A stretch of DNA of 64,000 nucleotides, from NCBI GenBank assembly GCA_963793305.1, contig CAWBZV010000003.1, forward strand, positions 928,001 to 992,000. The letters run 5' to 3'. This DNA is from an uncultured Gemmatimonadales bacterium (GTDB lineage: Bacteria > Gemmatimonadota > Gemmatimonadetes > Gemmatimonadales > Gemmatimonadaceae). Positions within the stretch are counted from its first letter, which is position 1, and every line of letters starts with the position of its first letter. Positions 33,480-44,382 of this stretch are shown piece after piece. Made by a program: the position numbers and the translations under genes. Under the pieces are notes generated by a model. It was not told where the DNA came from and did no database searches. It saw only the letters and a list, made by a program, of their open reading frames with translations.

Positions 33480-33929
33480 ATGGACCCCGTACAAGTCGAA
33501 CAGAAAAGCTATGAGATGCCCCCGCACGAGGGGTTCTCCGTCGCCTATTTTCTCACCGTCGCCGACATTGAGCGATCGGCTCGCTTCTATGAAACGGTCT
33601 TCGGCGGTCGCATTCTGAGCAAGGGCGACAAGAGCGGCGCGCCCGGGTACATCCAGATCGCCAACATGTGGCTCCTGGTGAACGTCGGTGGCGGGCCGAC
33701 CCCCGACAAGCCGACGGTGACGCTCAGCGTCACCGACCCGAATAAGATCAGCAGCTTTATGAATATCCGCGTCGCGGACATTCACGCGTGCTATAAACTC
33801 TGGAAAAGTCGGGGAGCCGAGTTCATCACGGAGCCTATCCCGAAGTACGGCGAGATCCGCTGCTACATCCGCGATCCTGATGGCTATATCATCGAGGTCG
33901 GACAGAGCACCGATCTCACGTACGGGTAA
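33480..33929 (+). CDS. VOC/glyoxalase family protein (copy 1)
   Basis: LTVADIERSARFYETVFGG...YIRDPDGYIIEV. Confidence 0.9.
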   Translation: MDPVQVEQKSYEMPPHEGFSVAYFLTVADIERSARFYETVFGGRILSKGDKSGAPGYIQIANMWLLVNVGGGPTPDKPTVTLSVTDPNKISSFMNIRVADIHACYKLWKSRGAEFITEPIPKYGEIRCYIRDPDGYIIEVGQSTDLTYG

Positions 33930-33932
33930 CGC

Positions 33933-34355
33933 GTGGCGCTGCACTATGAGATGCCCCCGCACGCCGGGTTCACCGTCACATATTTTATCACCGTCGCTGA
34001 CATTGATCGATCGGCCGATTTCTATGCAAGGGTCTTCGGTGGCCGCATTCTGAGCAGAGGCGATAGCAAGGGTGCGTCTGGGCACATTCAGATCGCGAAT
34101 ACGTGGCTCATCGTGAACGTCGGGGGCGGGCCGACGCCCGACAAGCCGACGGTAACGCTAAGCGTCACCGACCCGAATAAGATCAGCAGCTTTATGAATA
34201 TCCGCGTCGCGGACATTCATGCGTGCTACAAACTCTGGAAAAGTCGGGGAGCCGAGTTCATCACCGAGCCTATCCCCAAGTACGGCGAGATTCGCTGCTA
34301 CATCCGCGATCCTGATGGCTATATAATCGAGGTCGGACAAAGCACCTCCGGATAA
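33933..34355 (+). CDS. VOC/glyoxalase family protein (tandem copy 2)
   Basis: Near-identical 3' half to copy 1 (offset 435 bp). Confidence 0.88.
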   Translation: MALHYEMPPHAGFTVTYFITVADIDRSADFYARVFGGRILSRGDSKGASGHIQIANTWLIVNVGGGPTPDKPTVTLSVTDPNKISSFMNIRVADIHACYKLWKSRGAEFITEPIPKYGEIRCYIRDPDGYIIEVGQSTSG

Positions 34356-35169
34356 GCCCCTGGTGTAGCACGCCCGATCTCTCGAGCATCGCCAATTGGT
34401 CACCGTCGTGACTCACGACGACCGCCACACCGGCCTGCTCGGCGGCGTGGAGCCACTTGAGCTCTCCAGCGATCGGGCCGCGATCCTCGCGAATGGAGTC
34501 GGGCTTCTGGGTTTCCGTCTCGATGCCGAAGCGATGCCAGGCCACGTCGCCCGCGAGAATGACTTCTCTCCCGGACGCGAGCTGGACGTAAATCACTTGG
34601 GATCCCGGCGTATGCCCCGGCGCCTTGATCAGCACGACGCCGGGGGCGATCGGCAGTACGTGGTCGTAGTCGACGACGATGTAGCGGTCCACCTTCGTCG
34701 AGTCGAGCGTGGTGATGAGCCGCGCGTGGGTCAGCATGTCGACTTGCTGGCGCGTGAGCATCGTGTGCGGCGCGAGTTCGTCCGACACTGCCGATCGCAC
34801 GACCGTGGCGGCGTGGTCGTAGTGCTCGTGCGTGATGACGATCAGGCTCGCGGCGCGAAGTGCCGCCACCGCGCTCGCGTACGCCTCATCGAGAAACACG
34901 CCCTTGTCACCGGCGCGGCGCGCCGTCTCGCGATCCATACCGGCATCCACCATGATCCAGCCATGCGGAAAACACACCTGGAATACCGGAGTTGGATTCG
35001 CGACCTTCGTCTTGGCGGCGTTCGCGCCCAAATCCGATAGGGGCGCCGAGTCGGCTTCCAGAATGCGATAGCCGATCCAGGTCGGAAGATCGCCCGGAAT
35101 CGCGTGCGCCACCGCACGCGCGGCCGCGAGTTGAAGGAGCAGGGAAAGTATGTGCGACACGTTGGCCAC
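34270..35169 (-). CDS. MBL-fold metallo-hydrolase
   Basis: MVDAG, ITHEHYDH, APGHTPGS, LAGD, VSHD; the 3' end runs into VOC copy 2; start approximate. Confidence 0.8.
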   Translation of the reverse strand: MANVSHILSLLLQLAAARAVAHAIPGDLPTWIGYRILEADSAPLSDLGANAAKTKVANPTPVFQVCFPHGWIMVDAGMDRETARRAGDKGVFLDEAYASAVAALRAASLIVITHEHYDHAATVVRSAVSDELAPHTMLTRQQVDMLTHARLITTLDSTKVDRYIVVDYDHVLPIAPGVVLIKAPGHTPGSQVIYVQLASGREVILAGDVAWHRFGIETETQKPDSIREDRGPIAGELKWLHAAEQAGVAVVVSHDGDQLAMLERSGVLHQGLIRRCFVRPRLYSHQDRGCSSESRRTWG

Positions 35170-35174
35170 GTTTC

Positions 35175-36004
35175 TCAAGGTAGTAGAACGTCGACAACCG
35201 AGCGCCGCGGACCGGCTGGCGCCGGCGCGAGCGGATAGCCCATCCGGAACATGAACGTCGGCTCCCACGTCGCGTCGCCCGTCAGCTCGGCCAGCCGCGC
35301 CTCGGCCCGCGGCGGGCGACGAAGGCGTTGCTCGCGGTCGATGAGCTCGATGGCTTCGTTGATTGGACGCGCGGCGACGCCGTGCACCGTCGCCGTGAGG
35401 TGGAGTTGTTGCCACGCCCTCCCGGCGCGCAGCGTTTGTGCGCGGTCGTGCCGGTCGCGGACGGCGATCACTCCGAAGATCGTGGTGGCCTCCAGGCAGT
35501 GTCGTACGGGGTTCGGTTCGTGTGCCGGTGCGGAATGGCGGTATAGAGCGGGCTTACGTCACGCGGCCCCGGCGACAGGGTCACGCGGACAACGAGGTCG
35601 GGCGTGGGATCCAATGGAATGAGTCCCAGCGTTCCCTCGGAGAGCCAGACCGACGGCGCAAAGCCTTCTGCGCGCGCGGCCAACACGACATTTTCGAGCG
35701 CGCAGCCGAGGCCGAGATGAGCCTCGCGCAGGTACGGATCGAGTGCGCCAGTGTTGCGTTTCGTGTCGAGGTACAGCTCGATCCAGGTGTCGGCCACACG
35801 GAAGAGCCACGGCTGCGAGTTGTGAGGACTCGGCGCCAGAATGGCCGCGCCGATGATCGGCTCCTGACGCCACGTGTGCCACGGTTCGTAGGCGGGGCCT
35901 TGGCCGGTGCTGAAGACACCTTGATCGAGAGCGCGCCAGACACCGCCGCCCGCGACGAGCACGGTGGCAACGCCCGCCTGCGTGAAAAATGCTCGACGGT
36001 CCAT
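35175..36004 (-). pseudogene. Acg-family FMN-binding nitroreductase with Tat signal, internally deleted
   Basis: MDRRAFF; LAPSPHNSQPW; LGCALEN; RHTNR is joined out of frame almost directly to the C-terminal IFGVIAVRD..AGRAWQQLHL..FRMGY..PRR. Confidence 0.75.
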
Positions 36005-36114
36005 GCCGCCAGAGTACCGAACGCATGGACCGTCGGGGGAGCCCGAAGGGACGAGCCGGCCGCACAGGGGGGCGACCGTGACCCCGCGCCAGGCTCGGTG
36101 GTCACGACGTAGAT

Positions 36115-36654
36115 ATGATGAGTGGTCGGCTTGGCGTGATCAGGTACGGATGCGCGCTTGCCCTTGCGGCGAGCGGGCTCCAGCCGCTCGCCGCCCAGTC
36201 AGCCGCGGATTCGGTGCAGGCCGCCACGTTGGAGAAACTCAAGGCGGTGATCGCCACCTACGAGCCGGCGCGAGAGATCCGCTGGTATCGAGCGAGCAGT
36301 CCGTTCGACCTGGACGGCTTCTCCGACAAGTCACTCCATTGGTCGTCGCGCTTGGAGATCTACATCACCGTCACGCGTCAGGCGACGATCTGGTTGCGCG
36401 TGTACCCGCAGTACTACGGACACCACATCAACCTGAACCGGGTCCACGACCCCAATGGGTTGATGCAGCAGATGCTGCGGTTCTCGTATCACAACTTCTT
36501 CTTCTGGGGACTGGACGACAATCGGGATGCGTTCGCGGGTTACCAGTTCACACTGGAATCGGGCTTTCCCGAAGCGGCGGTGAAAGAAGTGATCAAGAGC
36601 ATCCCGTTGATCGATGGATCAGTCGGTGATCTCACGCCGTTCATCCTGCGGTAG
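36115..36654 (+). CDS. Exported hypothetical protein, possibly YbjN-like fold
   Basis: Signal peptide; C-terminal FFWGLDDNRDAFAGYQFTLESG pattern resembling YbjN. Confidence 0.55.
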   Translation: MMSGRLGVIRYGCALALAASGLQPLAAQSAADSVQAATLEKLKAVIATYEPAREIRWYRASSPFDLDGFSDKSLHWSSRLEIYITVTRQATIWLRVYPQYYGHHINLNRVHDPNGLMQQMLRFSYHNFFFWGLDDNRDAFAGYQFTLESGFPEAAVKEVIKSIPLIDGSVGDLTPFILR

Positions 36655-37563
36655 GTGGCGGAAGCGCTCGATCGCCAGCTGGAGCTCGGCGAATGTCTCC
36701 GTCTCGCGGATGCGATCGAGATAGAGATTGCGTTCGACGACACCGTTCAGGCGAAACGCCCAGTAGAGCGCCATGAGCGGAGTGATCGCGAGCGTGCTGC
36801 CGCTGGTACGCGCGGTCGCATGATAGTCGCCGAACTCTCCGCGGATCGCCGAGATCACCGAGGTATTCACGATACTCGTCGAGAACCGATCGCGGAGCGC
36901 GAATGCCACGGCACTCTCGTAGTCCTCGACGTCCGTCGTCCCCGCAACGAGCGACCACGCGCCGAGGAAGTCCCCGCGCTTCGCGAGCGCGGCGATCGCC
37001 GCGAGCACGGAGGTGTCGGTGATGCCGTGGAACGTCTCGACGCCGAGTCCGACGGAGACGAGTATCTTGACCGCCACCGGGAGGTTCGCCGCCGCCGCGA
37101 GGCTCGCGGCATCTTCCTCCGGAGTACCAAGCCGCGGCTCGTCACCGCGCAACAGGCAGTCCGTGCCACCGTCGACCAGCACGACCGCGTCGAGACGAAG
37201 GAGTTCGGCGAGCGCCGCGTAGGCCTCCCGAAGAGGCTTGGCGCCCGTGCGGTCGAAGCAGTAGATCGGCACATCCTGCTCGCGCTTGGCGAACCAGCGA
37301 GCGAGTTGCAGCTCGGGGAAATTCGACCCCTGAGCCGCCGTACCGGCGGTCACACGCACCAACGCAGGTCCTAGTACCCTAGCCGTTGACCCGAACGGCG
37401 TGGATGACAAACTCGCCAGATGCACGGCCTTGCCCGCGCGGCGCAATGCTCCATACAGCGGCAGCGCCGCGAAGACATCGGCGCCACCTCCGGCGCCGGC
37501 GAGCAGCACGCTCTGCGTCGGTGCAAGCGCGGTGATGATCGGAAGTTGGAAGTCGAGCGTCAT
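36619..37563 (-). CDS. DUF1152 family protein
   Basis: LAGAGGGADVF, LVDGGTDCLLRGDE..LGTPEED, SIVN..V..AIRGEFGD. Confidence 0.85.
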   Translation of the reverse strand: MTLDFQLPIITALAPTQSVLLAGAGGGADVFAALPLYGALRRAGKAVHLASLSSTPFGSTARVLGPALVRVTAGTAAQGSNFPELQLARWFAKREQDVPIYCFDRTGAKPLREAYAALAELLRLDAVVLVDGGTDCLLRGDEPRLGTPEEDAASLAAAANLPVAVKILVSVGLGVETFHGITDTSVLAAIAALAKRGDFLGAWSLVAGTTDVEDYESAVAFALRDRFSTSIVNTSVISAIRGEFGDYHATARTSGSTLAITPLMALYWAFRLNGVVERNLYLDRIRETETFAELQLAIERFRHLPQDERREITD

Positions 37564-37574
37564 GGTGTCGTGTC

Positions 37575-37610
37575 TGTTAGTCTACACCCATGCGATTGGG
37601 GAGCGCAGCG
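37575..37610 (+). repeat. 36-bp direct repeat, copy 1 (extended -10 + ATG + 7 codons)
   Basis: TGTTAGTCTACACCCATGCGATTGGGGAGCGCAGCG; 35/36 identical to 39667-39702. Confidence 0.92.
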
Positions 37611-37612
37611 TG

Positions 37613-38131
37613 ATGGCAGACAGCCCTTGGCGATGCGAGGTATGCGGTGTCGTTCACAGCGACTCCGTCGCGGCACTCGGTGCTGATGCTCCGCAATACT
37701 GGTATGACCTTCCGCCCACGGAGCGGTCGCGGCGCGCTGAGCTGTCGTCGGATCAGTGCCTTATCGATGATCAACACTTCTTTGTGCTCGGGCGATTGTT
37801 GCTGCCCGTCATCAACGAAGAGGAGGCTTTCGAGCTATTAGTGTGGGTTTCACTGAGTCCTCAGAACTTTCGTAGAATGAGCGAGCTCTGGACCACACCG
37901 GGTCGCGAGGGGGAACCGGCGTACTTTGGATGGTTCAGCAGCCGCCTCCCGGGATTGCCGGAGACCATGAATTTGAAATGCCACGTGCACACGATGCCGG
38001 TGGGCGAACGGCCAAGTGTCGAATTGGAGCCGTCGGCGCATCCGCTCGCGCTCGCTCAGCGAGATGGGCTTACGCGGCCGCAATTGCAATCGCTGATTGC
38101 CCTCCTCATGCATCCACAAACCGAGGTGTGA
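37613..38131 (+). CDS. DUF2199 family protein
   Basis: CEVCGVVH, LSSDQCLID..HFFV, VWVSLS..NF, YFGWF, GERP. Confidence 0.88.
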   Translation: MADSPWRCEVCGVVHSDSVAALGADAPQYWYDLPPTERSRRAELSSDQCLIDDQHFFVLGRLLLPVINEEEAFELLVWVSLSPQNFRRMSELWTTPGREGEPAYFGWFSSRLPGLPETMNLKCHVHTMPVGERPSVELEPSAHPLALAQRDGLTRPQLQSLIALLMHPQTEV

Positions 38132-38141
38132 GAGCGAGATC

Positions 38142-38352
38142 ATGCGATCGGTATTCGTACTCCATCATCTGCACGATGTACAGCTCGGTCGAATCTGCGC
38201 ACACGGCTGTAGAACGGCTACGCGTTCAGCCCGGGTTCTCCGATCATCCACGGATTGTGGATCCGCTGAAAGATGACGACGTGCAAGGCTTTGAGATCGA
38301 CGAGTATCCACTCGATAAGGATCGCTGGTCAGAGGGCTATCTGACTACGTGA
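38142..38352 (+). pseudogene. Small conserved protein (YSS..A..A..RL..QPGF..GF.IDEY.LD..W.EG family) with 5' frameshifting deletion
   Basis: MRSVFVLHHLHD is in one frame and YSSVESAHTAVERLRVQPGF...GFEIDEYPLDKDRWSEGY in another; the linker segment appears to be missing. Confidence 0.55.
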
Positions 38353-38361
38353 TCGCTCGCG

Positions 38362-39459
38362 CTACCGTCTCCGCTTTTTATTCGGCGGTGGCTTGGATTC
38401 GTCGTCGCTGTCTTCGCCGCCGCCGTCCCGCTCGTAGCTGCTGTCACTATCCTCGCCGTCACTCTCGGCGCTATCGTCCCGCGGGCGTTTTGGGTTCCGG
38501 ACCGGCGGCGGTTGCCAGCGTACGGGGCGATCCTGGGGGAGTGGCATGAAGTCATTGAGAATCTGCCAAATGACGTCGCCACCCTCGCGTTCGCCGTGCG
38601 CGTAGTCGAACAGCCGCGCGTAGAGATCGATCGCGGCGCGGTTTTGCTCGCGAAATCCTGCCTCGGCGTTCAGATCGAGCGCAAGACTATCGGCAACGGA
38701 CGAGAGAAGCTCCGCCACCCGGGTGACGTCATCCATGCGAGGACCGTAGTGTGAGTCGGACCCCGGCAAGGTTTCCTCGGCTAGTCCCAGTGATCGGACC
38801 GCTCGTTGCGCCAACGGTCCGGTCGACTGCACCATTTCGATGATGTCCAGAAGCTTCTCTGTCCGCACCTCCGCGTGCATCCCTCTCCGCAGCGCCCAGA
38901 GACGTTCCACCGCCTTCCGAATCGTTTTGTACGGCGACTCGCCCTGCTCGACCAGCATCAACCGCTTGACATTCAAAACGTCTCTGCGCAGAAACCCAAT
39001 CACCGTATTCTCCGGACCCGGACCGGGCCACAGGTTCACGCCGTTGCTGAAAATGAGCCGGGCGACGACCTCGAGCAGCCGGCACATGTGCTCGATGTTG
39101 TCCGGGTCGCGGATGTTGGCGACTGCCACACCGTACCGGGTCGCGAACCCCCTCAACCGGGTATGCAGGATGTGTAACTGGCGGGTCTCGGCGTAAAAGT
39201 TGGCTGCGCGGCAGAGCGTAGCCAGCAGCAGATGCGAGGGGAGAATGTGGCGCCGATGGTTGCCGGCGCCGGGATACAACCCGTTGGCCGTCGGCGTGAA
39301 CGCCGGGCGCCCCTCGTAGTCGAACTCGTCGAATTCGTCGTTCCAATCGAAGCCGAAGTTCGCCGCGGGCCTGAAGGCCGAACCATCACCGGCGGGTGGG
39401 CGTCTCCCAGCACCGGAGATGTCGGGCGCGCGGCGGGTGGGATCCGGGGATTCCGACAT
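38362..39459 (-). CDS. Hypothetical protein; putative HNH-like domain and C-terminal acidic/basic NLS-like tail
   Basis: 365-aa ORF with GC-ending codons; HRRHILP...SNGVNLWPGPGPEN; tail NPKRPR-(D/E/S-rich)-PPPNKKRRR. Confidence 0.7.
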   Translation of the reverse strand: MSESPDPTRRAPDISGAGRRPPAGDGSAFRPAANFGFDWNDEFDEFDYEGRPAFTPTANGLYPGAGNHRRHILPSHLLLATLCRAANFYAETRQLHILHTRLRGFATRYGVAVANIRDPDNIEHMCRLLEVVARLIFSNGVNLWPGPGPENTVIGFLRRDVLNVKRLMLVEQGESPYKTIRKAVERLWALRRGMHAEVRTEKLLDIIEMVQSTGPLAQRAVRSLGLAEETLPGSDSHYGPRMDDVTRVAELLSSVADSLALDLNAEAGFREQNRAAIDLYARLFDYAHGEREGGDVIWQILNDFMPLPQDRPVRWQPPPVRNPKRPRDDSAESDGEDSDSSYERDGGGEDSDDESKPPPNKKRRR

Positions 39460-39666
39460 GGTGCGACGTTATGGAGACCCGAACACGTACGCAAGGAGTC
39501 TGAATGCCGTGTTGGCCGAGACCGGTCGGCTATCCTCCACGCGCTCGCGGCCCCAGGTCACGATGCGCAGTCGCATGATGTTGCGAATGGCATCGTCGTC
39601 ACCGGACCTTTCGAATAGCTGTCGAACGGTCAAAATGTTGAGTTGAACGGCAGAATTCGCCGAGCG

Positions 39667-39702
39667 TGTTACTCTACACCCATGCGATTGGGGAGCGCAG
39701 CG
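39667..39702 (+). repeat. 36-bp direct repeat, copy 2
   Basis: TGTTACTCTACACCCATGCGATTGGGGAGCGCAGCG; contains the start of the 39682 gene. Confidence 0.92.
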
Positions 39703-40086
39703 GAGTATGTCGAACTGGATATCTCGCCGCGTAGGTCCAAAGTGCCGCCGGATGACGACGTGCTGGTCAACGTCGGCGTGCATTGCGACGGCTTTGCCGG
39801 CAACGCCTCACAGTGGGTGCTGGCCCGGGCCTGGGACGCGTTTGTCACCGAGCTCAGCGAGCTTGAGCGGACGCGTCGGGGTCAGGCGGTCCTGCAGAGC
39901 GATTTCGGCCATGCCTTTCTGCTGCGCCTCTTCTCGACCGATCAGGCTGGCCACATGGCCGCGACCGGGATGATCCGGTACATCAGAAGTCGGGAAGACG
40001 CCGGTGCGCTCGAGTTGTCATTCGGCCGCATCGAAATCGATCCGACGAGGTTGCCGGACCTGCTTCGCTTGGTCGAGCAGGCGTAG
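39682..40086 (+). CDS. WapI-like immunity family protein
   Basis: F..EL..L.....G.A.L....L.L...D.AGH....G......L.F..EIDPT.L pattern, recalled from WapI-family proteins. Confidence 0.55.
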   Translation: MRLGSAAEYVELDISPRRSKVPPDDDVLVNVGVHCDGFAGNASQWVLARAWDAFVTELSELERTRRGQAVLQSDFGHAFLLRLFSTDQAGHMAATGMIRYIRSREDAGALELSFGRIEIDPTRLPDLLRLVEQA

Positions 40087-40104
40087 CTCACTCATCATGA
40101 CTGA

Positions 40105-41298
40105 TTACGGCCGCGACGCCGAGTCGAGCACGGCGCCGGTCGCGAGGTTGAGGCGAATCGTGACGTTGGTCGTCTGCCCGGTCGCAATGGTGAAACGCCG
40201 CGCCGACTTCCTTGGCACGTGCCACATTGGGTCGCCGTTCGGGAAATCCCTAAGCAGAACGGTGTAACCGCCGGGCGGCAGTTCTATCGTATCACCCCAC
40301 CCGTCGGCCGTGGCGTGCGTATGGTATGCCGACTTCTCCGACGAATCAGGAAGCTCCAATGCGTGGGTCGCCACGATGTAGCGGTGCGACGATGCTTCCC
40401 ACACGCGCACCCGGGCTTTCCCCCAGGTGCTCCGATCCTGGGGCGGCGGCGGTGGAGGCGGTAGTGGCTCATGCAACTCGGGCGTGGTGCGGCTCGTGCG
40501 GTGCATGCTGAGACGACCGGAGGCCGCCGGGCCGTACGCTTGCTCATACCACCAACCGGTGATCGAGTCGCCCGCGATCTTCCCGTGCACGACGATGCTC
40601 CCATGCGAGATGTTCGGAATCAGCTTCAACTCGATGGTGTCACCCGGGAATGCGGTGCCCACGACGTTGCGGAGGAACGAGGCTTCGCCGTTCGGCGTAA
40701 CCGTCGTCGAGACCAGCTCCGGAACCTCCGTGCCGAGGAACGGCGTCAAGTCGATGTCGAACCGGCCGGACTCCATCTGTACGGTGTCGTCGGGAGGATT
40801 GACGAAAAACGGCAACGGGTTCGCGATCGTCGTGCCAAAGAGCATCGTCCCGCTGACAATGTAGGCAGTCGGTTTTACGCCAGGCTGCTGGTGCACGAGC
40901 GTGAGCCTCACGGTCCATTGCCCGGCAAGTCGGCAACACGGCGCGGGCGACCGGTGGAGCGTGAAGTCAACTACTGTGGTCTTGTGGTCGTGGAGCTCGA
41001 CCTGGTGCTTCGCGACATCGTAGTCGTTGCGCGACGCGGAAAGCGAGAGGATGCCAGCGTGCGCGAACATCGCGAACGCGCCCGTCGAGTCAGTATGCGC
41101 AAAATCCCTGTACTCGTCAGTCTCTCGGATTTCTGCGAGGACGACTGGGCGATGGGTGGTGGCGTCGATGACGTGGCCGATGACGCACGGCGGGGTCGTG
41201 TCATCCCAGTCGTGCCGCGCACACGGCACGCCCTGGCCCATCGCTCGAGCGGCGACAAGAGCCAGCGCGGCGATCGGCAAGATACGACAGGCCGTCAT
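40105..41298 (-). CDS. Exported protein with carboxypeptidase-regulatory-like domain
   Basis: Signal; IGHVIDATTHRPV..AEI..HTDSTGAF..VDFTL; ATGA-coupled to the AraC gene. Confidence 0.7.
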   Translation of the reverse strand: MTACRILPIAALALVAARAMGQGVPCARHDWDDTTPPCVIGHVIDATTHRPVVLAEIRETDEYRDFAHTDSTGAFAMFAHAGILSLSASRNDYDVAKHQVELHDHKTTVVDFTLHRSPAPCCRLAGQWTVRLTLVHQQPGVKPTAYIVSGTMLFGTTIANPLPFFVNPPDDTVQMESGRFDIDLTPFLGTEVPELVSTTVTPNGEASFLRNVVGTAFPGDTIELKLIPNISHGSIVVHGKIAGDSITGWWYEQAYGPAASGRLSMHRTSRTTPELHEPLPPPPPPPQDRSTWGKARVRVWEASSHRYIVATHALELPDSSEKSAYHTHATADGWGDTIELPPGGYTVLLRDFPNGDPMWHVPRKSARRFTIATGQTTNVTIRLNLATGAVLDSASRP

Positions 41299-42339: not shown

Positions 42340-43047
42340 ATGAAGATGATCCGTACGGCGATGCTGCTCGCCGCGGCGTTCCCGGCCCTGTTGGCCGCGC
42401 AAACCGACCAGGCGTCCGGCCCGTACGCGCGCATCGCGACCATGCGTGCGCTGGACGGCCACGGGTGGGAATTGGAGCAGGGATATCTCCGGCACCTCGA
42501 TTGGCACCGGGGGGCCAAGGACACGTATGGCTGGTATAGCTACTCGTTCTGGGCATCCAACGACCGGCAGCGTTGGATCATGTACGCGACGTTCGGCCAC
42601 ACCGCGGCCAGCCTGAGCAACCCGGTCTCACCGGCCGAAGACGAGCAGAACAACGTGCTCAACGTGCTGCCCCACGCCCAGTTCATGAACAACGGGGTCT
42701 ACGAGTTCCTGCCGGCGCTCTCGCGCGGCAATGGTGTGCCGACTCCGACGCCTCGCGCCGAGTACACGACGGTCGTGCTCGTCTATGGCGCGGGCAAGCC
42801 GTTCGAGGCCGCGCTCGCGCTGGAGCAGCCCAAGCTGCGCGGAGAGACGCTGTGGTATCGCATGGTCCTGGGCGGCGATACCCCGAGCTACGTCCGCATT
42901 CGTCCGCGCGAGAACCTGGGCGCCATTCTCGACGAGCGCGCTGATCAGGCGCTCCCCGACAAGGTGACCGGCTTGGTCATGAAGATGACCGTCGAGACGC
43001 TCAATCTGCGGCCGAACATGTTGGTCAACGTCACGCCCGAGCGTTAG
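42340..43047 (+). CDS. Exported uncharacterised protein, paralog 1 (H-x-x-W-H)
   Basis: Signal peptide; RHLDWHR, YATFGHTAASL, YEFLPALSRG, ETLWYRMV. Confidence 0.8.
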   Translation: MKMIRTAMLLAAAFPALLAAQTDQASGPYARIATMRALDGHGWELEQGYLRHLDWHRGAKDTYGWYSYSFWASNDRQRWIMYATFGHTAASLSNPVSPAEDEQNNVLNVLPHAQFMNNGVYEFLPALSRGNGVPTPTPRAEYTTVVLVYGAGKPFEAALALEQPKLRGETLWYRMVLGGDTPSYVRIRPRENLGAILDERADQALPDKVTGLVMKMTVETLNLRPNMLVNVTPER

Positions 43048-43693
43048 ATGCCGTACGGCCCCTACGCCCGTATCTCGATCCTCCGTCCCCATGACGGCGA
43101 CACGGTCGACTTCGAAGCCGGTTCCGTCCGGCACATCGAGTGGCATCGGCAAGCCAAGGACACGTGGCCTTGGTATGTGTACTCGGTCTGGGCATCAACC
43201 GAGCGGCAACGCTGGGTCATGTACGCGACGTTCGGACATACGGCCGCCAGCTTGAACAACCCGGTGTCGCCGGTCGAGGACGAAAAGGACAACATCTTGA
43301 ACATCCAGCGGCACGCCCAATTCCAGGGCAACTGGGTGTATGAGTTTCTGCCGGCGGCCTCGCGCGGGAATGGCGTGCCGACGCCGACGCTTCGCGCCGA
43401 GTACACCACGGTGGTGCTCAACTCGGGCGCGGGCGATGCATTCGAGGCGGCACTCGCGCTGCAGCAGCTCACGCAGCAGAAAGAGACGCTCTGGTATCGC
43501 ATGGTCGTGGGCGGGAATGTCCCGTGCTATGTGCGCCTGCGCCCGCGCGCGAGCCTGGCGGCGATTCTCGATGAGCGCGAGGATCAGGCCCTTCCGGGCA
43601 CCAGCAGGGGCTTGGTCGCGAAAGTGACCGTCGAGACGCTCAACCTGCGGCCCAACATGTTGGTCAAACGTCACGCCCGAGGGACAGCCATGA
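43048..43693 (+). CDS. Uncharacterised protein, paralog 2 (no signal peptide); +1 A near 43667 hides its stop
   Basis: RHIEWHR, YATFGHTAASL; alignment to paralog 1 (GTC AAC GTC ACG CCC GAG) shows an extra A. Confidence 0.75.
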
Positions 43694-44382
43694 AGCGTGT
43701 GTTGCTCGTGATCCTCGCTGCCATTGTCCCCTCGGTGGCTTCTGCCCAAACGGGCAAGGGCCCGTTCACGCTCATCGGTGTGCTGCGCCGGCTGGAGGGA
43801 CGCGACTTCGAATTTGATGCGGCGATCGCGCGCCACTGGCAATGGCATCGGGATCACCACGACCCGTACGTGTGGTACACCTGGGACATTCGCTTCAGTG
43901 ATGAGAGAATCGGCGGCCTGATGTTCGCGAGCTTCAATCACTCGGCCGGCAGCCTGGACAGCGCAGTGGCACCCGCGGAGGACTGGGCCGACTGGCGCGT
44001 GACTGGTGCACCGGTCAGCGAGTTCACGAACCTCGAGACCTATCGGTACCTGCCGGAGCTCTCGCGTGGTACGGGCGATCCTGGCCCGGCCGTCTTGTTG
44101 GAGTTCATGACGGTGGACGTGCCACCGGCGGCAGCGAGCGCCTTCGAGGCCAAGCTCAAAGCGGGACAGCCTTCGTTGAAAGGGGAGACCCTCTGGTACC
44201 GGTTGGTGACCGGTGGCTCTATGACTCGGTATCTCTGCCTGCGTCCTCAGTCGAGACTATCAACGGTGATCGAGGGTGGCTCCGACGACCAAGCGCTCGC
44301 ACAGGCGACAGCATTGGCCACTCGCATCACCATGGAGCTCTTGATATCGGAGCCAAGTTTAACGATCGACGCCGGTCGCTAA
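43690..44382 (+). CDS. Exported uncharacterised protein, paralog 3
   Basis: Own signal peptide MKRVLLVILAAIVPSVASA; RHWQWHR, ASFNHSAGSL, YLPELSRG, ETLWYRLV. Confidence 0.78.
   Translation: MKRVLLVILAAIVPSVASAQTGKGPFTLIGVLRRLEGRDFEFDAAIARHWQWHRDHHDPYVWYTWDIRFSDERIGGLMFASFNHSAGSLDSAVAPAEDWADWRVTGAPVSEFTNLETYRYLPELSRGTGDPGPAVLLEFMTVDVPPAAASAFEAKLKAGQPSLKGETLWYRLVTGGSMTRYLCLRPQSRLSTVIEGGSDDQALAQATALATRITMELLISEPSLTIDAGR

What the first reader, a model, noticed from the sequence alone, without database searches (positions are those of the whole stretch)
37575..39702. 2.1-kb cassette bounded by a 36-bp direct repeat that duplicates a promoter and gene start and drives the incoming gene
Seen: TGTTA(G/C)TCTACACCCATGCGATTGGGGAGCGCAGCG occurs at 37575 and 39667, 2092 bp apart. 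The repeat reads as an extended -10 (TG-T-TAnTCT), 6 nt, then ATG, i.e. a leaderless start, and its only mismatch is at a degenerate -10 position. Copy 2 begins the intact WapI-like gene (MRLGSAAEYV...). Copy 1 gives a 7-codon peptide MRLGSAA* whose TGA overlaps the DUF2199 ATG (TGATG). No recombinase is encoded inside. Inference: an att-like or homology-driven cassette insertion that regenerates the target gene and expresses the cargo by translational coupling, i.e. an integrase-less gene-capture site for conflict genes, potentially excisable.
Basis: partly seen in the sequence, partly recalled or inferred. Interest (0 to 1): 0.8.

Follow-up and report, generated by a model that had tools for sequence, protein, structure and literature searches.

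The report
Copied promoter scar in eroding locus
A 36-base copy of one gene's promoter and first seven codons now sits in front of a neighbouring gene in a soil bacterium's decaying accessory region; it looks like an ordinary recombination scar that lent that gene a new promoter, not a gene-capture system.

Summary
The repeat is real: 35/36 identical, 2092 bp apart, with only two copies in the genome. The promoter reading holds. TAnnnT 5-7 nt before ATG is this genome's leaderless motif, and the 36-mer is the native 5' end of a WapI-like gene.

The 'incoming cassette' reading is poorly supported. A congener (G001, about 90% identical) has neither copy, yet holds a DUF2199/DUF7336 stump, an intact serine-hydrolase/LytS/LytTR operon and its LytTR box between the same flanks. 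The window keeps scraps of that operon, cut by microhomology deletions. The 2.1 kb is therefore the eroded rest of a resident array. Only a 365-aa orphan looks newly acquired, and it is not bounded by the repeat.

Best reading: copy 1 was grafted onto DUF2199 by short-homology or illegitimate recombination (promoter capture). It supplies a promoter and a Shine-Dalgarno 6 nt before the conserved GTG start, so coupling through TGATG is not needed.

One metagenome contig hints at a collapsed DUF1152-promoter-WapI allele, but its junction letters were not shown. No alternative repeat-bounded cargo was seen at DNA level. Low interest.

The parts
36115..36654 (+). Left flank gene (179 aa, no Pfam); followed by different DNA in G000, G001, G003 and G005, so it marks the edge of a variable slot
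36619..37563 (-). DUF1152 gene, 314 aa; its last 11 codons run antisense into the left flank gene, whereas relatives of 306-307 aa have their own stop (deletion-fusion inferred)
37575..37610 (+). Repeat copy 1: TG + -10 TAGTCT (37578-37583), 6 nt, ATG 37590, MRLGSAA; contains GGGGAG Shine-Dalgarno (37598-37603); the last G is the first base of the DUF2199 GTG
37590..37613 (+). 7-codon mini-ORF MRLGSAA*; its TGA overlaps both GTG 37610 (GTGA) and ATG 37613 (TGATG); translation not shown
37610..38131 (+). DUF2199 gene (173 aa from GTG, 172 aa from ATG); a stump of its start with another 12-nt leader is in G001 at this locus
38142..38352 (+). DUF7336 pseudogene: start in one frame, body in another (internal deletion inferred); an internal scrap of it is in G001
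38362..39459 (-). 365-aa orphan with its own TAnnnT-6 nt-ATG start, acidic tail and basic C-terminus; it stands where G001 has the esterase/LytTR/LytS/hydrolase genes and is the likely newcomer
39507..39609 (-). Two scraps of the 5' part of a serine hydrolase gene that is intact in G001; 63 nt lost between two copies of an 8-nt microhomology, and a second deletion removed the start codon and -10
39622..39651 (-). Orphaned LytTR-type box: 9-bp direct repeats GCCGTTCAA and ACCGTTCGA, 12 bp apart; upstream of the hydrolase/LytS/LytTR operon in G001
   Evidence: spacing as in PMC6193735 passages; binding not tested
39667..39702 (+). Repeat copy 2: native leaderless promoter (-10 TACTCT 39670-39675) and first 7 codons of the WapI-like gene
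39682..40086 (+). WapI-like / DUF6228-like gene, 134 aa, intact; absent from the syntenic site of G001; present elsewhere in G005 (77% nt)
40105..41241 (-). Right flank gene (CarboxypepD_reg domain), syntenic in G001

Best explanation
The locus is a fast-turnover accessory slot of a Gemmatimonadaceae bacterium. Its older content was DUF1152 (left-facing), DUF2199, DUF7336, a LytTR-regulated hydrolase operon with its box, and the WapI-like gene. Lineages have pruned this array by short-homology deletions, leaving gene scraps (shown for G000 and G001). In the G000 lineage one such recombination event placed a copy of the WapI-like gene's first 36 bp in front of DUF2199, in place of DUF2199's own leader: promoter capture (inferred). 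Three routes give the same sequence and cannot be told apart here: (i) a hybrid between a collapsed allele (DUF1152-promoter-WapI) and a full allele, with an illegitimate join after codon 7, about 40%; (ii) tandem duplication followed by deletion between two similar leaderless promoters, about 30%; (iii) the stump of a once-complete second WapI-like copy, about 30%. The join probably survived because it works: a -10 box starts an mRNA near 37590, and GGGGAG lies 6 nt before the conserved GTG, so DUF2199 can be translated by Shine-Dalgarno initiation, with re-initiation after the 7-codon ORF as an optional extra (inferred, not measured). The two copies can recombine and drop the 2092 bp passively; no dedicated enzyme or reuse is implied.
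For: G001 is syntenic on both sides at 89-93% identity, lacks both copies, DUF1152 and the WapI-like gene, and holds pieces matching 37619-37638, 38283-38320, 39507-39568, 39561-39609 and 39602-39660 in the same order between the flanks. Its hydrolase, LytS and LytTR genes are intact. The window's hydrolase scraps are joined at an 8-nt microhomology; the X1 haplotype has another 100-bp skip with 8 letters fitting both sides at 35832-35933. G001's DUF2199 stump has a different 12-nt leader before the same GTG. Contig-length matches (inferred co-location): DUF1152+DUF2199+hydrolase+LytS on 44016 and 20104; DUF1152+DUF2199 on 7050 and 3324; DUF1152+hydrolase on 47833; WapI-like+LytS on 45356. Over-long gene calls P0013 (83%) and P0014 (74%) read through the LytTR box into the WapI-like gene, so that adjacency is old. 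The 36-mer is native to the WapI-like gene: MRL/FGSA is kept in 7 of 7 close homologues, residues 2-4 form the first strand of a pLDDT 93.6 model, and G005 has TATTCT-6 nt-ATG. TAnnnT peaks at spacers 5/6/7 (88/151/117 of 2987 ATG genes, against 14-24 at spacers 13-29). Similar gene-end duplicates occur elsewhere in the genome.
Against: No DNA was obtained for any relative with DUF1152 next to DUF2199, so absence of copy 1 there is not shown. The contig-length links are not sequence-verified, and the member lists were cut (15 of 21 DUF1152, 15 of 38 hydrolase, 15 of 20 LytS). G001 has itself lost DNA at both ends, so it could have lost both copies. One mismatch in 36 does not exclude a duplication as old as the G000/G001 split (P=0.11 at 10% divergence, 0.27 at 7%). 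X2 record 11 (10 differences in 787 nt) leaves the window sequence exactly at 37610 with 9 unaligned letters, and record 14 ends 9 letters past copy 2.
Confidence: 0.72

Rival explanations
1. Old integrative island: a block of 6 kb or more (DUF2199 through the LytTR operon, plus a replacement WapI 5' end) once inserted into the start of the WapI-like gene opposite DUF1152, then lost its integrase and decayed to 2.1 kb; G001 later lost both ends.
For: The layout (stump left, regenerated gene right) is that of insertion into a gene's 5' end. X2 hints at an empty-like allele. Another 40-bp gene-end duplicate in this genome has an empty site in G005.
Against: G001's DUF2199 stump has another leader. 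The box-WapI adjacency is kept in a 74%-identical homologue. The copies are only 1/36 apart. No recombinase remnant was found among the proteins scanned.
Confidence: 0.13
2. One reading: a reusable, integrase-less capture site. Circles carrying the 36-mer recombine into the WapI-like start, regenerate it, and express cargo by translational coupling.
For: Promoter and start are duplicated, and the target gene is intact. X2 gives a possible empty allele. P0009 shows DUF2199 followed about 20 nt later by the promoter and WapI-like gene, a shorter interior, and two short contigs (2167, 2087) may be alike.
Against: The interior is resident and decayed, not cargo. The shorter interior is explained by deletion, and its left end is unseen. 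The 36-mer has no further copy in the genome. Of 9 metagenome pattern hits, 1 was a WapI-like gene (no second copy, same sequence as G005's) and 8 were unrelated; viral contigs gave 0.
Confidence: 0.12
3. Assembly artefact: a mis-join at a short repeat.
For: The genome is an unfinished assembly of 26 contigs with 5% contamination; X1 may be its source.
Against: X1 contigs, which differ from the window by a 100-bp skip and several substitutions, span both copies; an X4 contig from another study spans copy 2 with 0 differences. The copies differ at one base.
Confidence: 0.03

Closest known systems
Promoter capture / promoter reuse ('putative mobile promoters'; Nijveen, Matus-Garcia, van Passel 2012, PMC3575422; part 1 of 2 of the text read)
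   Same: A near-identical promoter copy stands in front of an unrelated gene in the same genome, as a pair, with no known mobile element.
   Different: 36 bp rather than 50 bp or more; it covers the -10 box and runs into the coding region, which that survey says it filtered out; leaderless promoter; both copies lie in one variable locus.
Homology-facilitated illegitimate recombination (HFIR) in natural transformation (passages of PMC6382021, citing de Vries and Wackernagel 2002)
   Same: A RecA anchor plus a microhomology join; would give a left/right hybrid of two alleles and gene scraps at the joins.
   Different: Competence of this organism was not tested; the anchor and donor are not identified; a Ku homologue is present, so end-joining repair is another source of the microhomology joins.
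Integrative elements that insert into the 5' end of a protein gene and bring a replacement start (dusA-type islands; known here only from earlier-finding notes and recall, paper not read)
   Same: Duplicated gene start on both sides; target gene intact.
   Different: No integrase found; target is a rare accessory gene (5 of 251 family genomes), not a conserved one; interior is shared with a congener lacking the repeats; no family of cassettes.
WapI-like immunity proteins (Pfam PF24716) / DUF6228, for the 134-aa gene only
   Same: 93 of 101 aligned homologues hit PF24716 at E<=0.01; 4 of 7 close homologues, best E 0.0013; atlas neighbours at 0.94 carry WapI or DUF6228.
   Different: The window protein has no Pfam hit itself; no toxin gene was recognised beside it; no PDB fold match at E<=0.001; immunity function untested.

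Membership tests
Site-specific integrative element / genomic islet | Direct repeats duplicating the target | tested here: met
   36 bp, 35/36 identical
Site-specific integrative element / genomic islet | Recombinase encoded in or beside the element | tested here: not met
   No recombinase hit among interior and flanking proteins; the rest of the genome was not searched for a trans-acting enzyme
Site-specific integrative element / genomic islet | Precise empty site in relatives | tested here: inconclusive
   Not found in 5 congeners; X2 record 11 is a hint without letters
Site-specific integrative element / genomic islet | Interior foreign to the locus | tested here: not met
   Interior pieces lie between the same flanks in G001; GC 0.57-0.66 across the interior, within the range of the surrounding 18 kb
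Integron gene cassette | attC-like site or repeated structured site in an array | tested here: not met
   Only 2 copies genome-wide; no Rfam match at gathering score in 36000-41000; the repeat was not folded
Promoter reuse / capture | Near-identical promoter before unrelated coding sequences | tested here: met
   Same -10/6 nt/ATG before DUF2199 and the WapI-like gene
Promoter reuse / capture | Motif is a promoter type of this organism | tested here: met
   TAnnnT peak at spacer 5-7 among 2987 ATG genes; statistical only
Promoter reuse / capture | Transcription starts at both copies | not testable with these tools
   Needs TSS mapping
Promoter reuse / capture | Recipient gene had another leader before | tested here: inconclusive
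   G001's DUF2199 stump has another 12-nt leader, one genome only and itself at a deletion join
WapI-like immunity family PF24716 (134-aa gene) | Profile match | tested here: inconclusive
   Window protein 0 hits; 93 of 101 homologues hit at E<=0.01; gathering scores not shown
WapI-like immunity family PF24716 (134-aa gene) | Protects against a cognate toxin | not testable with these tools
   No cognate toxin recognised nearby

The most novel reading that the evidence does not exclude
In this Gemmatimonadaceae lineage, 24-52 bp gene-end duplications act as enzyme-free swap points. At this locus the 36-mer would keep full and collapsed alleles interconverting in soil populations, toggling DUF2199 and an orphan gene while always preserving an immunity gene. 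The compact leaderless promoter plus built-in Shine-Dalgarno would make any gene landing behind codon 7 expressible at once. The X2 contig, the shorter interior in P0009 and three other gene-end duplicates in the genome are compatible with this.
Probability: 0.12. Interest if true: 0.65.

Novelty: new member of a known kind. Interest (0 to 1): 0.22.

Why it matters
As read here it is a tidy natural example of promoter capture in a leaderless-rich bacterium: 36 bp carry a promoter, a start and, by coincidence of codons 3-5, a Shine-Dalgarno for the next gene. It also warns that a direct repeat around an interval does not make the interval a cassette. It would matter more if strains showed unrelated cargoes behind the same 36-mer or a circle, since that would be recombinase-free gene capture at an accessory gene.

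Tried and rejected
Sigma-70 consensus scan found no site at either copy (1 hit in 5 kb, 0.8 expected); the scan needs a -35 box and does not suit leaderless promoters.

No RNA holder listed among 18 runs. In X2 the WapI-like gene beyond 39711 had no laid contig; a hole proves nothing, but the inferred junction stays unverified. No joint 37610 to 39703 and no circle joint was listed in table 5; contigs drop rare variants.

Searches for extended or alternative-frame ORFs that would read across copy 1 gave nothing useful: 0 hits among shorter proteins; 3 hits, none extended.

DUF1152 scan of species genomes gave 12 loci, best 64%. Only L049 was read, and it has neither DUF2199 nor the repeat upstream. 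Ten family DUF2199 loci show no similarity to the repeat.

Orphan P0004: no Pfam, NCBIfam or PADLOC hit; atlas best 0.83 (lead only); single-sequence fold pLDDT 37.8, not searched; 1 marginal hit in 300 other phylum genomes.

Fold search of the WapI-like model found no PDB match at E<=0.001; Whirly/PUR and a CdiI chain are weak rows.

Literature: DUF2199, DUF1152 or DUF7336 in 0 papers; citT/rnk/tandem duplication/promoter capture in 0; one search gave 2 unrelated listings; some searches were seen as listings only; PMC13732712 passages added nothing. No supplements were opened.

Earlier-findings look-ups by place and sequence were empty.

Full report
OBSERVATION. The repeat is as described: 37575-37610 and 39667-39702, 35 of 36 identical, 2092 bp apart. 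The genome (G000, 5.72 Mb, 26 contigs) has no third copy even at 9 substitutions. Its 30-nt exact core is far beyond chance (maximum 17 in 500 simulations). Copy 1 gives MRLGSAA*, and copy 2 opens a 134-aa ORF. X1 contigs span both copies and an X4 contig from another study spans copy 2 without differences; X1 may be the source of the assembly. A homologue's source name places the organism in Gemmatimonadaceae.

WHAT THE 36-MER IS. It is the native 5' end of the 134-aa gene. The start MRL/FGSA is kept in 7 of 7 close homologues, and residues 2-4 form the first strand of a confident model (pLDDT 93.6). With my own simple gene calls (4302 genes, 2987 with ATG), TAnnnT peaks at spacers 5, 6 and 7 (88, 151, 117) against 14-24 at spacers 13-29. 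A leaderless promoter is therefore the natural reading; transcription itself is not shown. The protein is WapI-like by family: 93 of 101 aligned homologues hit PF24716, the window protein does not. It is rare, found in 5 of 251 family genomes including G000.

THE INTERIOR IS RESIDENT AND ERODED. Of 61 genomes searched with 36600-40200, 11 had a match and only G001 was syntenic on both sides (89-93% identity nearby). G001 has neither repeat copy, no DUF1152 and no WapI-like gene. Between the same flanks it holds a stump of the DUF2199 start fused to an internal scrap of DUF7336, then intact esterase, LytTR, LytS and serine-hydrolase genes, then the box matching 39602-39660. The window holds the mirror image: intact DUF2199, a frameshifted DUF7336, two scraps of the hydrolase gene at 39507-39609, and the box. 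One join uses an 8-nt microhomology with 63 nt lost; the other removed the hydrolase start and -10. The box is a pair of 9-bp repeats 12 bp apart, the spacing given for LytTR sites in passages of PMC6193735. Only the 365-aa orphan (38362-39459) is absent from G001. It has its own leaderless-type start, and its ends are not the repeat.

WIDER RELATIVES (indirect). No DNA could be fetched for the 88-96% identical metagenome relatives, so co-location is inferred from equal contig lengths in cluster lists (lists cut at 15 members). DUF1152 shares a length with DUF2199 in 4 of 14 listed non-self members (7050, 44016, 20104, 3324), with the intact hydrolase in 3 (44016, 20104, 47833), and with a WapI-like gene in 0 of 14 (11 WapI-like contig lengths). 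A 74%-identical WapI-like gene shares 45356 with LytS. Over-long calls P0013 and P0014 read through the LytTR box into the WapI-like gene, so that adjacency is old. P0009 reads the alternative frame of DUF2199's 3' half and, about 20 nt after its stop, the promoter and WapI-like start; contigs 2167 and 2087 may be alike. Different lineages thus keep different subsets of one array.

HOW COPY 1 DRIVES DUF2199. The stop overlap that could be conserved is GTGA. Codons 3-5 of copy 1 spell GGGGAG 6 nt before the GTG, pairing at -7.7 kcal/mol with the genome's own 16S tail, against -1.7 for the leaderless ATG 37590. Shine-Dalgarno initiation is enough; re-initiation after the mini-ORF is possible but not needed. 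G001's stump has a different 12-nt leader before the same GTG, which suggests that copy 1 replaced an older leader.

EVIDENCE AGAINST MY READING. X2 record 11 (796 nt, 10 differences) aligns over 36824-37610 and leaves the window sequence exactly at the end of copy 1 with 9 unaligned letters, while record 14 ends at 39711, 9 letters past copy 2. The letters were not displayed, so this is a hint. Such an allele fits a deletion between two promoters, a collapse between the repeats, or a true pre-insertion state. One mismatch in 36 also does not exclude an age equal to the G000/G001 split (P=0.11 at 10% divergence), and G001 has lost DNA at both ends.

IS IT A SYSTEM? A genome-wide scan gave 584 direct-repeat segments, 58 of them short and isolated; about 19 look like tRNA ends by eye, and this is the only one seen with a -10 box, ATG and a 7 versus 134 codon outcome. 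I looked at 16 of the 58 and searched 4 in five congeners. A 40-bp 3'-end duplicate (C5:1579508) has an empty site in G005 and other content in G001. A 52-bp one (C5:1529683) brackets 3.2 kb missing in G004, which lacks the repeat too. A 24-bp start duplicate (C2:792389) has an interior shared with G001 and G004. The fourth (C2:22689) was not resolved. These share no sequence with the 36-mer, so they look like background turnover. A pattern scan gave 9 metagenome hits (1 WapI-like gene without a second copy, 8 unrelated) and 0 viral hits.

MECHANISM. Shown: the repeat, its origin in the WapI-like gene, the resident and decayed interior, microhomology joins. Inferred: that copy 1 was grafted on by short-homology recombination; the route (allele hybrid as in HFIR, duplication then deletion, or stump of a full duplicate); promoter activity; selection for DUF2199 expression. 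A Ku homologue is present, so end-joining could contribute. Confidence 0.72. Old decayed island 0.13, reusable capture site 0.12, artefact 0.03.

KNOWN KINDS AND VERDICT. It works like promoter reuse or capture (PMC3575422, part 1 of 2 read) and could arise by HFIR (PMC6382021, passages). It fails membership of integrative islets on two tested features (no recombinase, interior not foreign). The three DUF names were found in 0 papers of the searched library. Earlier scan notes describe similar start duplications in other taxa (unchecked AI notes). Verdict: real, mechanistically ordinary, new member of a known kind; interest 0.22, or 0.65 if a reused enzyme-free swap site were shown (probability 0.12).

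Noticed in passing
window 38362-39459 (-): 365-aa orphan with a leaderless-type start, an acidic tail and a basic C-terminus ending in a run that resembles a eukaryotic nuclear-localisation signal (resemblance recalled, not tested); no family hit, 1 marginal hit in 300 other phylum genomes. It appears to have replaced a four-gene LytTR operon.
   Followed up: partly
G000 C5:1579508-1580913 (L079 1509-2914): 40-bp duplicate of the 3' end of a 583-aa gene brackets one 299-aa gene; G005 has the flanking genes adjacent (empty site) and G001 has 860 bp of other content. A better candidate for integrase-less insertion than this finding.
   Followed up: partly
G000 C5:1529683-1532899 (L081 2184-5400): 52-bp duplicate resembling a gene 3' end brackets 3.2 kb (kinase-like and Fic-like genes by eye) that G004 lacks.
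   Followed up: partly
G000 C2:792389 and C2:799895 (L080): 24-bp duplicate of a gene start on the minus strand, each copy behind a TAnnnT box; the 7.5-kb interior is shared with G001 and G004.
   Followed up: partly
G000 C3:474656 and C3:475847: 33-bp leader duplicated 1191 bp apart, each copy ending in an ATG that opens a long ORF (368 and 430 codons).
   Followed up: no
G000 C4:22471-42013 and C5:1192947-1195585: Stacks of three to five tRNA-end duplicates (by eye), suggesting tandem islets at single tRNA genes.
   Followed up: no
window 35832-36600: The X1 haplotype has a 100-bp skip (35832-35933, 8 letters fit both sides) and 9 of its contig's 11 substitutions left of 36600, at most 2 in 36600-38065: a mosaic, suggesting recombination between close strains.
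   Followed up: no
window 34357-36133: About 1.8 kb (metallo-hydrolase-like gene and nitroreductase fragments) absent from the syntenic site in G001: another variable slot just left of the finding.
   Followed up: no
window 33480-34355 and 42340-44382: Tandem paralogues: two glyoxalase-like genes 435 bp apart (87%) and a three-unit repeat family at 639 and 702 bp spacing; both also present in G001.
   Followed up: no
window 37577-37583: TAGTCTA in copy 1 is a near-palindrome giving TAnnnT on both strands (TAGACT on the minus strand, 15 nt before the DUF1152 ATG), so the site may be a bidirectional -10.
   Followed up: no
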